A stretch of DNA of 64,000 bases from the NCBI GenBank assembly GCA_000002445.1, contig CH464491.1, positions 4,704,001 through 4,768,000 of the forward strand, given 5' to 3'. The stretch's first letter is position 1. Every line of letters begins with the position of its first letter. Origin of the DNA: Trypanosoma brucei. Taxonomy: Eukaryota. Positions 54,901 to 60,900 of the stretch are shown one piece after another. A program made the position numbers.

Positions 54901-57900
54901 TTATATTCGTTTATAAAATTGTATTTTTTCTCGTTGCAAAGTTATTATATTACAATCACACGTGCGCGGTATAGTGTGTAGTCTGCTGTTTCCAACACCA
55001 AAACACAGTGCTATCTACAAAGCTACCTTTTATGCTTTTGCGCTGGTTGTAATGGATGCAAGTTTACTTCTTGAGCCCATCCTATGCCTGTTTTGCCTCC
55101 ATGTCAGTTTATAATTTGCGGTTCAGGGTTTATAGTGCTTGAATTTAATGGAAGGTCAGTATTACCCCTCTAAAAATTAGGTTGCTTACCAGTTTCACCG
55201 TGTCTCTTATTCATTTTGTTGTAAACAAGGCTGTATAGTCTGCTAGTTGTGCTTCTTCGTGCCTCTCCACCTTTTCGCTTCACCGTTGTTGCTAGTCTAG
55301 CCTCAAATTCAGCTCAAACATTACTTTGTATCTGCATCTTTGATGACTTTATTTTGCCGTTAATACTAAGGAAGAGATATAGTTTGCTTCAAAACTACTT
55401 CTAATAATACGAGGCTCATCAAATTAAATCTAAACTCTTTTTAATCCTACACTTGTCCGGTCATCACCCTTATCGAGGTACTGCCGTTACTAACGATACA
55501 CACACTCACAACACTCTCCTATTATCATTATCACTATTATTACTATTATATCAGTAACTAATATTCAAGAAAAGAAAATAGATAAAACAAAGAATAAATA
55601 AAGAAAATTTCCCTATCACCTCAGCACTTTTCACACAGGCAATATTCAAACTAAGTTTTTATGTTTTTAATTTTTTCAAAATTTGCATACTTTGCAAAAA
55701 AAATTACAAAAGTGTTATAGTATTAGAAAAATATCTTAAACCAGCGATATTTACAAAGTTTCTTAAATTAAGAAATATCGTTGAAACGCCATCAAACTCA
55801 AAATAGAAGCAGCCATCAGAGAAAATTTCTTATTTACAAGGAAATGTAAGTATTTTCACACTTTTCCCTCCCACTTACAATCCGGAGATTTACAATCTTT
55901 TTCTTCTTTCCCCTTGCATTTCTCTGTTGATGTTCCTGTCGCTCCATCTTGTGTTTCTGCTGTGTTTGTCTGATTTGTAATTTTACATTTCTTCTACCTT
56001 GCACTACCCTTTGTCCTTAGCCCTTTATTATTTGCATGAACTATTACACTCTTTTTTTCTTTTCAGCCGCAAGATGCCTGTGTTTGTACGAGTGTCTTGC
56101 TCTCCGTTTCCCCTTCTTTGTTGCTGGAGTGCGGCAAATTTAGAAAATTGTAGGGCACCCAAGCCAAGTTTTCCAGCGTATGAAGCCGCTGTATTTGGAC
56201 TTTTAGCTGTGCATGCTTTGCTGTTGCATCCCTGATCTTTTTCAATCCCTATTATGAGCTGCTTTATCCATGGGATAGAATCTACACTTGTCGCTTGGTA
56301 GCTGGTCGTATAGTCTATGTAGACTGCGGCTGCTGATCAGCCCTGGTAGTTACTTTGAGCGCCGCCACCAGCGTTTAGCAGTGTTTTGCTGGAGCCCGTT
56401 CCTCTGCTTATGATTTCGATCGCGCTGCATACTGCGGCTACTAGAGTTTTTGTTGTTGCTGTGGTACTTGTGGTTCGCGTGTCGCAGGCTGTTTTGATTG
56501 GGACCCAGTCTGTATTTCCGTTGCAGGCTTTTTTCTTCTGTTGAGAATTCGCTCAATTTTATGGCGAACTACTGTTTTTGTTGGAAATTGGTTGGTGTAG
56601 CGTATAGTTTGCCACTTTATAAATCTATTGCTTTGTTTTTTTAGATTTTTCGAGTCTTCCACTTTCGTGTGCCTGTTCGAATTGCCACACTGTTGTGTTG
56701 TCATAGCACTTGGAAGCGTTACTATCCATGGATGTTCTGTTTCTGTCGTATTTTTTCCACTTCAGCCGCTGGTAGATGGTCCGTTTCTTTTATTCCCAAC
56801 CGTGCTACATTATAGGCACTGAAATACACAGTAAAAGCTTCTGCACCGTTCTGTGCTCCTTCCGCAATCGATGTAATAACTGCATTATAAAGAAAAGCTT
56901 AAAAATTACTGGTTGCGTATTTTTTCTATTTGTTTACCTTCTCTTTGTAGGGATTGCTTAAGGTCACGAATATCTGTTACATATATTATTAATATAGAAT
57001 TATAGTTACGTTCCGAGGAGGAGTTTGCGTCAGGTTAAGTTATTGTTCACGGAAAATCAATAACTTGCTTTTTGGAGGACTTCGATCTTTGCATGTACCT
57101 TATTTAAACCCTTTGACCCTTGTAAAGCGGTACCTTTGTTGACTGCCTTCCACCAACCATTGTTCTATCAAAATATAACTTCCCTTCCTTTGCTCCATAA
57201 GTTTTATTTGATGAAAAATGATCTCCAGTAAGTTATTTTTACACAGCAGGTGGACAAGCGATGATTTTAACACCTGATCTCGTTGGCCTGTCTCTGCACT
57301 CTCCCTTCAAAGGAGTAGTTAAAAAAGACTTGGTATCATATACAAAAAAGAAAATTGAAAACCATTGTTTCACCTCTGGTCCAAATTCTGCCCCACAAAA
57401 AAAACAAAATCATAAGTCAAGTATTCCTCTCAATTTATTCGATATAATATTATAAAAGGTCCATAACTGACACATTTTATAATTGCCACATACGAACTCA
57501 TAAAAAACTCATAGAATTGTTACTATTATAAAACTCATTACTATTATTATAATATTAGTAAATACACACACTGACAATACACCCCTATCATTATCATTAT
57601 TATTATTACAATTATTATTATAACCATTATAACCTTATCCATATCCATAAAGTATGGCAAAGAAGCAAACTAGTTATATTTTTGTACTCTGTCACCTTAC
57701 TACTACACAACCATATACCAATTTAATACAAAAATAATAGATTTTTGATTTCTTACTTTTGTAAATGTTCCAAATAAAGTGTTAATATTTATCAAATACA
57801 TCACATTTCAGCAACATTCAGCTGAAATTATATCAAAGAAAAAGATTCATAAATTTTCATAAAATTCAGAAAAACTCTTTAAAATAGTAAAATAATAATA

Positions 57901-60900
57901 TTATGCCAAACTCACAAGAGCAGCATCAAGCAGAAAAATGTTTTACTTGCAAGGAAACTGCCATTTCTGCGCTTCTCTATATCATTTTCCTCTTAACCAA
58001 CTTTGTTTTTACTACAGCCACAAACAGGTCTAGATTTGCCCTTGTTTTCTTTCTCACAGGCTTGTTGTGTAGTATGATTAAAGCAGTAAGTTTTCCCATC
58101 TTGATTTTCTTCTTCTTCCTGTTTTGGTATGTATGTCGGATTCACTACGCACTTTTTCTCTCCGTTTTCTGTAATTTTTTTGCAGCCGTCTGTGCAGTTA
58201 TATCCAACTCTTTTTCCAGCACAAACGTTTGGTGTTGGTTTCTCACTTTTTATTGGGGGCTCTTCCGCCATGTTGTCGGTGTTCGGTACTTTGTTGCCTG
58301 GGCTCAGTTCCCCAGCAAGTGCTGCCGAATAAATTACTTTTGTTTCCCCCAGTGCCGCTTGTATCTGCTTTGCAGCAGCTTGGGCGGATGCTGCTGCCGC
58401 CGTTTGCTTTTCGATGCCAAGTGCAGCAGCCTCTAGGTTGTTCACCCACGGGATGTCATGCCAGGTTTTTGACCCGTCTTTGGCGTTGAACTCGTGCTAA
58501 TCTCTTTCCTTGAGATAGCCCGGCGCAGTTCCACTGTATCCCGCGCAACGACGGGCCGGGATTCTCTTCCACATCACCGGACAGCAGCATCTTAGTGCGG
58601 ATGATACTGCTGATGGCACACTGGCACGTTCCCAGGGACAGACAAATGAAAAACGGTGTCCCAGCAAGACGCTGCTGATCCCTGTGCTGTATGATGCCGT
58701 AGCCGGAGCACAGCAGTGTTCCCCATGAAAGGAACGCTGCTGGCTCTTGGCTTCCCCCGATGATACGGGGTACTGGACCCTGGCACCACGATGAGGTGGC
58801 CGGCATCGCCAGGGCCTTCAATGTAAGTAATCCATCTGCAAACTGCTTTTTCACCTTTTGGTATATCGCTTTTTGCTGCAGCGCATGCATCAGGGGTTTG
58901 GGCGGCAGAGCACTTATCTTTTTATCCCTCGTTTGTTTTCTCTCCTGTTTCTGTGGTTTCTGTCTCTGGTTTGGGTTTGCAGTATTCTCCTGTTGTCTCT
59001 GTAGTGATGTCCCATTTGCAGTCGTTTTTGGGGCAGGTACTGTTTGTGGTGTATTGCTTGCAGTCTCCTTTTGATACTTTTCCTTCCGTTGCTTCACCAG
59101 CAGCGGCTGTTTTCGCTGTTTTCTGAAACTGGAAGAGGTAATGAGCGCGTTTGGTTACCGCTTTTGCCCTTGATATCAGGTCGGCAATTGCTGCTTTTTT
59201 GCGTCGCTGTTCGCTGTTGTAGTTGTCGCGCGCGGCGAGTTTGTCTGCGACGGCTTCTAGCTTGTTTATCCATGGTATGGCGTCGTCTTTTAGGTTTCCT
59301 GATGGTGCCCCGCCAGTGATTTTGACGCAGGCACCGGCTGCATTGCCGTTGCAAGTGTTTTCGCCCTCTGAGCCTATGAAAACATTGTTGCCTTGTGTGT
59401 TCGCTATTGTTTTTGCTGCGGCGACGAGTTCCCTTAATCCATGTGCTGTTATCTTTGTTTTGGTTGCTTTCGGGCAGACGTTGCGTAGGTTGCCCCAGCT
59501 TGCTCTGTTCGGTATGTTGGTCGCTTGCCATGCCGTTTGCGTTGTCTGTTTTTTGTGGCAAGGCTTCTTCGACTGTGTGTTGCCGGTTCCGCAGACGCAG
59601 ATTATTGTACCGGCTACTGTGTTTTGAGGTTTCTGTGTTCCTCCTCCTCCGCAGGCTGTCGTGTAACCTGTGTCTGGGCCGCTTAAAACTTTGTTCGCTG
59701 TGAGCTCTTCTGGTCCCCATTGCTCTTGGCCGTATACGGCTTGTGCTATTTCTTTCTGTAGCAGCTCGTCGGCGTCAGGTGCCGGCCCTGGGTCGCTGTC
59801 GGCCGTGTAGATGGCGCGCGCCGCTTCGGTAATGTCGTGTATTGTGGGGCGTATCGCCTCGATCTGTCCTGCCGTTGCAGTGGCTAGGCCATAGTTGGCC
59901 TTTAGATCTTTTTCGTTGTTGTCGGTTGCTAGAAAGACCGCTGTGTCGGCCCACGTCTTCCAACGCGCCTTTAATTCCTCGTCGTTCTCGTCTGTCGGCA
60001 CTTCCGCTGGTGTGGAGGCCGCTTTGTTGCCTTGATTTAAGAATTTCGCTCGCCAGTCTTTCGGTGCTATTGACATGTTGAGTCTGTACAGGTCCAGCGG
60101 CTCCGGCATATTAGCTTGGATCGGAGGTTCGAAAGTGGGCTTGACGTCCGCCAGCTGTAGTGCCGCACATAAGGGCTTAAATATCGCCGCATTGTCGCCA
60201 TCGGTGACGCCGCGTGCTTGCTTAAGTGCCGCTATCGCTAAAATAACGCCGGGTGCAACTGCTGACATGGTTGCTTGCATTTTTTGCTGTTTTACTGCTG
60301 AGCGTTATGGCTAATGTTTTTAAATTGGGTTTCGTATTAGAATGTGCTCTCAACTGTCGGTGCGTTTGCCATTAGCATTTTTTGATCGTTTTCGTCTAGC
60401 GCGTCGTTTCTTTCAGTTTTGAACTTAGGGATTGTGTTCTTGGATTGTCCCCAGGATGCGCTATGCATCTGCATGCAATTTCTTTTCCGTGAAGACGTCA
60501 GGAGATATCCATAGTGAGGAAGTGATGCTCTTTTTTTCGACTGATGCCGGTGAATTTATCCCTAAGACGTTGTAAATCTTTTTTCTGAACTGTCTTCGTT
60601 TGCATTGCGGTTTAACGTATGAATAAACGATTATTTGGCATCTATTACTGATTGTTTATATTTTATTAGCATGCATTCTAAAGTTCTGACTTTAGTTATC
60701 CGGTCTGAAAAGGGTATGCTGGACGTTTCATTTGGCTATTGGTGAGACGGGATAAATGATGTTTAGCACAATATTAACGATTGTCTTGTGCCAGCTCTGT
60801 TTAAAAGAGAGCTTCTATTTAGGACTATAAATATTTTTGGGTTGATTCGGATGATTCCTGGCAGGTCTTCGATACCTTCTTTAAAGTTCCTGGTTTACTA

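What the first reader, a model, noticed from the sequence alone, without database searches (positions are those of the whole stretch)
57900..60280. VSG-ingi-VSG chimera with a 312-bp 5'-intact, 3'-truncated ingi fragment joining two different VSGs
A near-complete B-type VSG (60280 down to 58813, open for 452 codons) stops just before its GPI-signal region. It is fused to the first 312 bp of ingi (58812-58501; same CCCTGG terminus, Pr77-like start and 2A peptide as the full copy at 35 kb). At 58500 the sequence jumps into the middle of another VSG (HEFNAKDGSKTWHDIPWVNNLEAA...) that keeps its own GPI signal and 3'UTR. Retrotransposition usually makes 5'-truncated copies. A copy with an intact 5' end and a deleted 3' end between two VSG segments looks like a recombination scar. 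Such a chimera could also give an untemplated source of VSG C-terminal exchange.
Basis: seen in the sequence. Interest (0 to 1): 0.7.

Follow-up and report, generated by a model that had tools for sequence, protein, structure and literature searches.

The report
Two VSG pseudogenes joined by ingi head
In a silent surface-antigen (VSG) gene array of Trypanosoma brucei, the first 321 bases of the ingi retrotransposon join most of one VSG pseudogene to the last third of a different one; this is a real but non-coding rearrangement scar of an already familiar kind.

Summary
On the minus strand, VSG-A runs 60280-58815 and has an in-frame TAA after codon 452. Next come ingi nt 1-321 (58814-58494, 95% identical to the full ingi at 35326-30183). 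Next comes VSG-B from codon 318 (58493-57993), with a degenerate GPI signal, a 3'UTR and the next 70-bp repeat.

The window is T. brucei TREU927 chr11, and this ingi piece is already listed in a public table. Both junctions also occur in a T. equiperdum assembly, so this is not an assembly artefact. T. b. equiperdum has an intact VSG-B at the syntenic site.

There is no target-site duplication, and the three parts lie in three reading frames, so no chimeric protein is possible.

5'-intact, 3'-truncated ingi "heads" are common, with at least 25 in TREU927. Three that I inspected carry a 9-13-bp target-site duplication and no poly(A). About five independent loci end at nt ~317-321.

Best model: a canonical ingi 5' junction in VSG-A and a primary reverse-transcription junction in VSG-B were united by recombination between two ingi 5' sequences, which deleted the DNA between them. 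Main rival: a microhomology-mediated deletion. Interest is low to moderate.

The parts
58922..60280 (-). VSG-A open reading frame: 452 codons, ending at an in-frame TAA at 58924-58922. B-type VSG, annotated elsewhere as 'VSG, atypical, putative'.
   Evidence: PF13206 VSG_B, E = 5.7e-74. 79% identical to VSG Ako 2.
58815..58921 (-). VSG-A C-terminal-domain sequence continuing after the stop (KDKCSAAQ...AVCRWITYIEG). The last 23 nt are an ingi-type target: upstream motif at 58837-58827 and the would-be 12-nt target-site duplication TTACATTGAAGG at 58826-58815.
   Evidence: A weight matrix built from 59 ingi/RIME 5' flanks scores this site 5.4 bits, in the top 0.7% of window positions and at the median of true sites.
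58494..58814 (-). ingi 'head', nt 1-321. The 5'-terminal conserved hallmark (Pr77 region) is at about 58814-58736. The ingi ORF start is at 58590. The 2A-like motif DVEENPGP is at 58575-58552. About 20 codons of the endonuclease domain follow. There is no 3' half and no poly(A).
   Evidence: Listed as NT_165288 37564-37884, element 1-321, 5' ok / 3' truncated. The window offset of +20930 was verified.
58494..58495 (-). Junction overlap 'AC', shared by ingi nt 320-321 and VSG-B codon 317 (GAC). The surrounding sequences are only weakly similar: ingi GATTAGCAC against VSG-B GACTATGAC, 6 of 9 positions.
   Evidence: alignment of the chimera, the intact VSG-B, the full ingi and the T. equiperdum contig.
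57993..58493 (-). VSG-B piece, equivalent to codons 318-484 of a 505-aa B-type VSG: the end of the N-terminal domain plus the C-terminal domain. In-frame TAA at 57995-57993.
   Evidence: 94% identical to P0011. (window 58495-55496 matches L002 6950-9954 at 96% nt identity).
57770..57992 (-). Degenerate, frame-shifted GPI-signal-like region and VSG 3'UTR. A 16-mer-like element, GATAAATATTAACAC, lies at 57793-57779.
   Evidence: Recognition of the 16-mer rests on my own knowledge of VSG 3'UTRs.
57516..57672 (-). 70-bp-type repeat (TAA/TGA-rich) of the next VSG cassette. It shows that VSG-B still sits in its native downstream flank.
   Evidence: matches to about 12 other inter-VSG sites in the window. 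(colinear with the T. b. equiperdum locus).
30183..35326 (-). Full-length but ORF-broken ingi, used here as the reference copy. It sits at the convergent strand switch of the array, is flanked by unrelated VSG pieces, and also lacks a target-site duplication.
   Evidence: NT_165288 9253-14396.

Best explanation
The locus is a dead VSG cassette made in several steps.

(1) An ingi-derived element inserted by normal target-primed reverse transcription (TPRT) into the C-terminal domain of VSG-A. This gave the junction ...TTACATTGAAGG|CCCTGG.

(2) A second, short ingi 'head' inserted in the same orientation into VSG-B at codon 317/318. Reverse transcription started inside the ingi RNA at the recurrent spot around nt 317-321 (..UUAGCAC), on a target beginning with AC.

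(3) Homologous recombination between the two ingi 5' sequences deleted everything between them. Those sequences were either two resident direct repeats, or the new cDNA and the resident copy. The deleted DNA comprised the VSG-A tail, the intergenic DNA and the first 949 nt of VSG-B, plus any further ingi sequence.

The result is one hybrid head carrying the left half-site of VSG-A and the right half-site of VSG-B.

Shown:
- the structure;
- the absence of a target-site duplication;
- the canonical-looking left target;
- VSG-B sitting in its native flank;
- the presence of both junctions in a second strain;
- the existence of TSD-flanked heads with recurrent ends.

Inferred: the second insertion and the recombination step.

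The product has no coding function. At most it is a pseudogene donor for segmental gene conversion, and it carries an ingi 5' promoter-like region.
For: - Left junction. The 28 nt upstream of the head score 5.4 bits on a matrix of 59 ingi/RIME 5' flanks. That is the top 0.7% of window positions and the median of true sites. A homologous C-terminal-domain position in another chr11 VSG (...SVCCWIDLIDG|) also carries an ingi head and scores 9.4 bits. The 12-bp TSD and the upstream motif of Tbingi are documented in PMC3820030.
- Right junction. The head ends at nt 319-321. TSD-flanked or probably TSD-flanked heads end in the same place: T. b. equiperdum L002 3121-2802 (GCATACTCTACC repeat), and TREU927 heads 1-320, 1-321, 1-321 and 1-326, whose alignment ends run 2 nt into their own 12-nt target sequence. 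Across 25 truncated heads, 8 show at least 2 nt of such overlap (permutation p = 0.0025).
- The window's right flank, ACGAGTTCAACG, also begins with AC. With that register the VSG-B site scores 1.95 bits (top 5.8% of window positions).
- Heads can be primary insertions. There is a 184-nt head with a perfect 12-bp ATTCGATAAAGG duplication whose empty site is in this window at 51840-51851. There is also a 420-nt head in T. b. gambiense with a 13-bp duplication.
- VSG-B is in situ. Window 58495-55496 is colinear with the T. b. equiperdum locus, where VSG-B is intact.
- Heads are dense in these arrays. There are two in 13.5 kb of L002.
- Both junctions occur in T. equiperdum contigs.
Against: - No genome examined shows the predicted parental state, i.e. 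VSG-B with a TSD-flanked head, or VSG-A with an ingi followed by TTACATTGAAGG. The TREU927 table has no element with the flank ...GACTATGACGAGTTCAACG.
- The VSG-B target score is only marginal. Allowing three registers, roughly 15% of random sites would score as well.
- The model needs more events than a single deletion.
- The evidence for a hot spot rests partly on a third-party BLAST table that I could not check against sequence.
- The head shows no visible mosaic pattern, although the power to see one is low.
Confidence: 0.5

Rival explanations
1. A single ingi (full-length or long) inserted into VSG-A. A later double-strand break was repaired by microhomology-mediated end joining between ingi nt ~313-321 and VSG-B codons 315-317. 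This deleted the rest of the ingi, the VSG-A tail, the intergenic DNA and the VSG-B 5' part.
For: - The junction has a 2-nt overlap (AC) within a 6/9 imperfect match, GATTAGCAC against GACTATGAC.
- T. brucei lacks NHEJ, and intrachromosomal joining is microhomology-mediated (PMC2377438).
- It needs fewer events.
- No parental two-element state was found.
Against: - Experimentally observed T. brucei junctions used 11-13 bp of microhomology with 1-2 mismatches, much more than is seen here. Extra similarity of 4 of 7 positions arises by chance at p of about 0.07.
- It does not explain why the breakpoint falls on the same 2-5 nt of a 5.2-kb element where about five independent heads end, at least one of them TSD-flanked.
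Confidence: 0.27
2. One non-canonical retrotransposition event caused an insertion-mediated deletion. First-strand synthesis was primed in VSG-B, and the cDNA end was joined to an upstream break in VSG-A. The DNA between was lost in the same event, with no second ingi copy involved.
For: - There is no TSD.
- The right junction looks like a priming junction.
- Such deletions are known for human L1 and SVA (for example PMC4229983, listed; L1 from my own knowledge).
Against: The left junction sits 12 nt downstream of a good ingi endonuclease motif (top 0.7% of window positions), and a homologous VSG site is independently occupied. That is expected for a canonical first-strand target, not for an arbitrary upstream break.
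Confidence: 0.1
3. The locus is a chimeric retrocopy. Reverse transcriptase copied the 3' part of a VSG-B mRNA, then switched template to ingi RNA at nt 321, and the whole product inserted into VSG-A.
For: The order (ingi 5' part, then the 3' part of another transcript) is the order expected from template switching.
Against: - There is no poly(A) and no TSD after the VSG-B 3'UTR.
- The VSG-B piece continues colinearly for 3 kb into its native downstream flank, including the 70-bp repeat, exactly as at the intact VSG-B locus of T. b. equiperdum.
Confidence: 0.02
4. The structure is an assembly artefact at a repeat, or a simple ingi insertion within one VSG.
For: ingi is a high-copy repeat, and short-read contigs break inside it.
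Against: - Both junction sequences occur at 99.8-100% identity in an independent T. equiperdum assembly.
- The two VSG pieces are 26% identical, overlap in VSG coordinates and lie in different frames.
Confidence: 0.02

Closest known systems
[quoted passage not shown]
   Same: The 321 nt are 95% identical to an ingi 5' end. They carry the conserved 5' hallmark, the ORF start and the 2A-like peptide, and they are preceded by the ingi upstream target motif.
   Different: Only 6% of the element is present. There is no 3' half, no poly(A) and no 12-bp target-site duplication.
RIME (the short non-autonomous partner: ingi 5' ~250 nt plus 3' ~250 nt)
   Same: It shares the first ~250 nt.
   Different: The fragment runs about 70 nt beyond the RIME 5'/3' joint and has no RIME 3' half.
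Recombination-mediated deletion between dispersed retroelements (Alu-Alu or L1-L1 type, from my own knowledge)
   Same: A single element is flanked by two non-matching half-sites, and the DNA that lay between the two parent sites is missing.
   Different: The parental two-copy state has not been observed. The repeat is only about 320 nt, and at least one partner would be an unusual 3'-truncated head.
VSG pseudogenes and fragments of the subtelomeric silent archive
   Same: It lies in an array with 70-bp repeats. It has in-frame stops, a truncated C-terminus and a degenerate GPI signal. PMC3553974 states that about 85% of the repository is pseudogenes.
   Different: This is not a mosaic made by VSG-VSG gene conversion. 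The joint is made through retrotransposon sequence.
3'-truncated LINE insertions made by internal priming, or from 3'-truncated RNA (rare for human L1; from my own knowledge)
   Same: Sister-genome ingi heads have intact 5' ends, 9-13-bp TSDs, no poly(A), and 0-3 nt of overlap with the target.
   Different: In ingi they appear frequent and have recurrent end points (nt 184 and nt ~317-321). The window copy itself has lost its TSD.

Membership tests
ingi (Tbingi) retrotransposon | Conserved 5' terminus and 77-79-nt hallmark (CCCTGGCG...) | tested here: met
   Window 58814-58494 aligns from nt 1 of the full ingi at 95% identity.
ingi (Tbingi) retrotransposon | 12-bp target-site duplication | tested here: not met
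   TTACATTGAAGG has no second copy of 9 nt or more in the window. The best match within 3.5 kb downstream has 3 mismatches.
ingi (Tbingi) retrotransposon | Conserved motif upstream of the 5' direct repeat | tested here: met
   Weight-matrix score of 5.4 bits, top 0.7% of window positions and the median of 59 true sites. The motif and the first-strand nick position are described in PMC3820030.
ingi (Tbingi) retrotransposon | Complete coding region (APE, RT, RNase H), 3' RIME-B half and poly(A) | tested here: not met
   Only nt 1-321 are present. The full copy is 5.14 kb.
RIME | 5' ~250 nt of ingi joined directly to the 3' ~250 nt | tested here: not met
   Homology continues to nt 321, beyond the RIME joint after MLLSGDVE. 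There is no match to the ingi 3' end.
B-type VSG | VSG_B N-terminal domain | tested here: met
   VSG-A matches PF13206 at E = 5.7e-74. The VSG-B piece alone has no Pfam hit, but its 94%-identical full-length relative P0011 carries PF13206.
Functional VSG gene | Uninterrupted ORF ending in a GPI signal | tested here: not met
   There are stops at 58924-58922, 58594-58592 and 57995-57993. The three parts lie in frames 0, +1 and +2.
Template-switch chimeric retrocopy | Whole chimera flanked by a TSD, with poly(A) at its 3' end, and located away from the parent gene's locus | tested here: not met
   There is no poly(A) or TSD. The VSG-B piece is colinear with its native flank.
Retroelement recombination-mediated deletion | One element with non-matching flanking half-sites | tested here: met
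   The left flank is the VSG-A C-terminal domain and the right flank is VSG-B codon 318.
Retroelement recombination-mediated deletion | An orthologous or ancestral locus with two elements in direct orientation | tested here: inconclusive
   T. b. equiperdum has an intact VSG-B without a head. The TREU927 table has no matching parental or reciprocal flank. Other strains could not be searched.
Microhomology-mediated end joining deletion | Microhomology at the joint of the size T. brucei uses (11-13 bp with 1-2 mismatches in PMC2377438) | tested here: inconclusive
   Only 2 nt match perfectly, within a 6 of 9 imperfect match (one search compared).

The most novel reading that the evidence does not exclude
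The window's 321-nt piece may belong to an undescribed class of ingi 'solo heads'. These are 5'-intact copies made when ingi reverse transcription starts inside the RNA, or on 3'-cut RNA, at preferred positions (nt 184 and nt ~317-321). They have 9-13-bp target-site duplications and no poly(A). Being numerous, about 95% alike and carrying the ingi 5' promoter-like region, they are scattered through VSG arrays, including recurrent sites in VSG C-terminal domains. There they would act as portable homology that fuses and deletes VSG cassettes. On this reading, retrotransposon heads would be a specific driver of VSG archive turnover, and the chimera would be one of their products.
Probability: 0.35. 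Interest if true: 0.55.

Novelty: new member of a known kind. Interest (0 to 1): 0.3.

Why it matters
By itself the locus is one more decayed VSG pseudogene. VSG-A is already annotated as 'atypical', and the ingi fragment is already in a published table.

Its value is as a clean, strain-shared example of ingi sequence, rather than VSG-VSG homology, forming the joint between two VSG cassettes. Ingi sequence also sits at the strand switch of the same array. This bears on how the silent VSG archive is reshuffled and eroded.

The side result may interest transposon biologists. TSD-flanked, 3'-truncated ingi heads with recurrent end points suggest that ingi can start reverse transcription internally. 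That would explain why 5'-only fragments are so common in T. brucei. It can be tested with a simple genome-wide census.

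Tried and rejected
- Inversion model. The ~320-nt head that lies inverted 3.8 kb upstream of the intact VSG-B in T. b. equiperdum (L002 2802-3121) could in principle have been flipped against VSG-B position 950. Rejected: its 5' flank is unrelated to VSG-A, and no part of L002 1-6949 matches window 58815-64000.
- Template-switch retrocopy. Rejected on synteny and on the lack of poly(A) and TSD.
- Rfam scan of 57800-60400 at E <= 1. 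No family matched, and no HDV-like ribozyme was detected.
- Word-indexed protein search with the VSG-B piece found nothing. The exhaustive HMMER search was needed to find P0011.
- Exact-protein look-ups for junction-spanning or antisense ORFs (213 aa, 150 aa, 177 aa). None is on record.
- Search with the head-encoded peptide. No predicted protein carries the chimera-specific C-terminus.
- P0031 turned out to be a long ingi, not a 450-nt head.
- The 11-row alignment of heads showed no informative mosaic pattern in the window head.
- Looked for other copies of the VSG-A C-terminal-domain target motif in the window and fetched loci. None was found.
- Bringaud et al. 2004 (Mol Biol Evol 21:520), the primary description of ingi/RIME insertion sites and truncated copies, is not held in the library. 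I therefore could not check whether TSD-flanked 3'-truncated copies are already described there.

Full report
WHAT THE WINDOW IS

The window is a subtelomeric VSG array of Trypanosoma brucei TREU927 chromosome 11. Two 100-nt ingi 5' flanks printed in a public table of TREU927 ingi/RIME copies are identical to window 58815-58914 and 35327-35426 (reverse complement). The table is PMC4660242, supplementary file 1, contig NT_165288. The coordinate offset is a constant +20,930.

- VSG genes read on the plus strand up to about 30 kb and on the minus strand from about 36 kb (AT skew; ORFs).
- A full-length but ORF-broken ingi (30183-35326, minus strand) sits at the convergent switch.

CHECKING THE OBSERVATION

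Read on the minus strand, the finding has three parts.

VSG-A
- It starts at ATG 60280 and is open for 452 codons, up to an in-frame TAA at 58924-58922.
- VSG sequence then continues for 36 codons (KDKCSAAQ...KAVCRWITYIEG) to 58815.
- It is a B-type VSG (PF13206, E = 5.7e-74).
- It is identical to a protein named 'VSG, atypical, putative' and 79% identical to VSG Ako 2.
- Aligned with full-length relatives, it lacks about the last 25-30 codons, that is the final cysteine region and the GPI signal.

The ingi piece
- From 58814 to 58494 the sequence matches nt 1-321 of the window's full ingi at 95.0% identity, E = 2e-145. The piece is therefore 321 nt, not 312 nt.
- It carries the CCCTGGCG terminus, the conserved 5' hallmark, and the ORF start with the 2A-like MLLSGDVEENPGP.
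- RIME copies diverge from ingi right after MLLSGDVE, about nt 250-255 (P0035 and P0036). The piece therefore comes from ingi, not RIME.

VSG-B
- From 58493 the sequence is a different VSG. An exhaustive HMMER search found a 505-aa B-type VSG (P0011) that is 94% identical from its residue 318 onward.
- VSG-A and P0011 are only 26% identical, and the two pieces overlap in VSG coordinates. VSG-A already contains its own ...IPWINKLEAVA region.
- The VSG-B piece has an in-frame TAA at 57995-57993 and a frame-shifted GPI-signal-like tail. A 3'UTR follows, and then the 70-bp-type repeat of the next cassette at about 57516-57672.

NOT AN ARTEFACT

- A T. equiperdum contig (CZPT02001047 in GCA_001457755.2) is 100% identical to window 60674-58783 and stops 32 nt into the head.
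- Another contig (CZPT02001854) starts 32 nt before the head's 3' end, at window 58525. It runs through the head|VSG-B joint and 9 kb beyond at 99.8% identity.
- Both joints therefore exist in an independent assembly of another strain. Linkage through only 321 nt in that strain is inferred, not shown.

VSG-B IS IN ITS NATIVE PLACE

- In T. b. equiperdum (GCA_003543875.1, locus tags DPX39) the full-length VSG-B lies at L002 6001-7518.
- L002 6950-9954 is colinear with window 58495-55496 at 96% identity.
- The window therefore keeps VSG-B's own downstream flank. What was lost is VSG-B nt 1-949 and everything upstream, as far as the VSG-A C-terminal domain.
- This excludes a retro-copied VSG-B (the template-switch chimera model).
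- An inversion model involving a nearby inverted head in L002 was also rejected, because nothing in L002 1-6949 matches VSG-A.

THE TWO JUNCTIONS

Neither the head nor the full ingi in this window has a target-site duplication.

Left junction
- I built a weight matrix from 59 distinct ingi/RIME 5' flanks, taken from the table plus three read directly. It recovers a motif upstream of the 12-nt repeat, with G at position -19 in 43 of 59 sites and T, T, G at -27 to -25.
- This agrees with the published 12-bp duplication and upstream endonuclease motif of Tbingi (PMC3820030).
- The VSG-A site scores 5.4 bits, which is the top 0.7% of window positions and the median of true sites.
- A homologous position in another chr11 VSG C-terminal domain (...SVCCWIDLIDG|) carries an ingi 1-450 fragment and scores 9.4 bits.
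- The left junction therefore looks like a normal ingi 5' junction.

Right junction
- ingi ...GAGATTAGCAC meets VSG-B ...GACTATGAC|GAGTTC with a 2-nt overlap (AC) inside a 6 of 9 imperfect match.

3'-TRUNCATED HEADS ARE COMMON AND OFTEN PRIMARY INSERTIONS

The same table lists at least 25 distinct 5'-intact, 3'-truncated ingi pieces of 46-450 nt in TREU927. I could read five heads directly.

| Head | Source | Flanks |
|---|---|---|
| 184 nt | T. b. equiperdum, L002 11141-10958 | Perfect 12-bp repeat ATTCGATAAAGG, no poly(A). The window holds the empty site at 51840-51851. |
| ~320 nt | T. b. equiperdum, L002 3121-2802 | GCATACTCTACC / (GCA)TACTCTACC; GCA is shared with ingi nt 318-320. |
| 420 nt | T. 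b. gambiense, L005 | 13-bp repeat with one mismatch. |
| 307 nt | T. b. equiperdum, L004 | No repeat. |
| 321 nt | This window | No repeat. |

In the table, heads annotated 1-320, 1-321, 1-321 and 1-326 each end exactly 2 nt into the first bases of their own 12-nt target sequence. That is what is expected if the target repeat follows directly. Overall, 8 of 25 heads show at least 2 nt of such overlap (permutation p = 0.0025).

About five independent loci therefore end at nt 317-321, and two end at nt 184. The window's right flank, ACGAGTTCAACG, also begins with AC. In that register the VSG-B site scores 1.95 bits (top 5.8%, which is marginal).

MECHANISM

The left half looks like a canonical insertion in VSG-A. 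The right half looks like a primary, internally primed insertion junction in VSG-B. The simplest way to unite them is homologous recombination between two ingi 5' sequences in direct orientation, with loss of the interval. The two sequences could be two resident copies, or a nascent cDNA and a resident copy. This is the retroelement recombination-mediated deletion pattern.

I put this at about 0.5. The missing evidence is the parental state. None was found in T. b. equiperdum, where VSG-B is intact with no head, or in the TREU927 table.

The main rival, at about 0.27, is a single microhomology-mediated deletion from one ingi.
- For it: T. brucei joins intrachromosomal breaks that way (PMC2377438).
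- Against it: the junctions reported there used 11-13 bp, compared with 2 nt perfect or 6 of 9 here.
- Against it: the model leaves the coincidence with the nt 317-321 end point unexplained.

A one-step insertion-mediated deletion (about 0.1) does not explain the good endonuclease motif at the left site.

CONSEQUENCE

VSG-A, the ingi ORF and VSG-B are in frames 0, +1 and +2. The VSG-A frame stops at codon 453 and again inside the head at 58594-58592. No chimeric VSG can be made. The idea of C-terminal exchange is not supported beyond the general donor potential of any VSG pseudogene.

COMPARISON AND NOVELTY

The object is an ingi fragment (5' hallmark and target motif met; TSD, 3' half and poly(A) not met). 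It is not a RIME. It joins two B-type VSG pseudogene pieces.

VSG pseudogenes, ingi within arrays and retroelement-mediated rearrangement are all known. The fragment is already catalogued and VSG-A is already annotated. I found no paper describing this chimera, or TSD-flanked 3'-truncated ingi heads. The key 2004 paper could not be read.

Verdict: the feature is real and is a new member of a known kind, with interest about 0.3. The recurrent, TSD-flanked heads are the more interesting lead.

Noticed in passing
window 51840-51851 (empty site); L002 10958-11141: T. b. equiperdum carries a 184-nt ingi 5' head with a perfect 12-bp duplication (ATTCGATAAAGG) and no poly(A). TREU927 has the unoccupied site. 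This is a clean presence/absence polymorphism of a 3'-truncated retrotransposon copy. TREU927 has another 1-184 head on chr7 with a different flank.
   Followed up: partly
L002 2802-3121; TREU927 table rows 1-320, 1-321 (x3), 1-326: About five independent ingi heads end at nt 317-321 (..TTAGCAC), and their target sequences start with GCA, CA or AC. This suggests a preferred internal start site for reverse transcription, or a preferred RNA 3' end.
   Followed up: partly
window 30183-35326 and flanks 29000-30182 and 35327-37300: The full-length ingi has an ORF broken into at least 3 pieces and no target-site duplication. It sits exactly at the convergent strand switch of the VSG array. Its 5' side abuts a minus-strand degenerate VSG. 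Its 3' end abuts a plus-strand A-type VSG cut at the domain hinge (...IPWAENLY...KLKREYKL|). This looks like a second ingi-associated rearrangement, possibly an inversion.
   Followed up: partly
TREU927 table (PMC4660242 suppl. 1): NT_165288 113874-114323; NC_007277 115958-116012; NC_007282 123849-124561; NC_007279 43034-43765: ingi heads recur at two positions in VSG C-terminal domains. One is after ...C(R/C)WIxxI(E/D)G (heads 1-321 and 1-450). The other is after ...G(K/Q)xxPV (heads 1-55, 1-716, 1-735). These are either insertion hot spots in conserved C-terminal-domain motifs or inherited insertions.
   Followed up: no
window 52876-55496 compared with L002 9919-9954: A 2.6-kb cassette containing a degenerate VSG (about 53.4-54.8 kb) is present in TREU927 and T. 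equiperdum but absent from T. b. equiperdum. It is bounded by a ~36-nt sequence present at both ends, which suggests unequal exchange at inter-VSG repeats.
   Followed up: no
L002 and L003 (CM010677.1 1660272-1673789 and 1854007-1867524): A segment of at least 10.8 kb carrying the intact VSG-B and both ingi heads is duplicated at 100% identity about 194 kb apart in T. b. equiperdum. The left boundary of identity (position 2729) lies about 70 nt beyond the truncated end of the 320-nt head.
   Followed up: no
L005 2040-2075 (T. b. gambiense chr10): The last 8 nt of the 420-nt head (TGGCTACC) resemble the first 8 nt of its target-site repeat (TGGCTAGT), and both are present in tandem. This hints that similarity between RNA and target influences where these truncated copies start.
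   Followed up: no
L007 2305-2993 (T. b. equiperdum chr8): An inverted ingi 3' segment (nt 4464-5144) abuts the exact 5' end of a long ingi. This is another non-canonical ingi-ingi junction.
   Followed up: no
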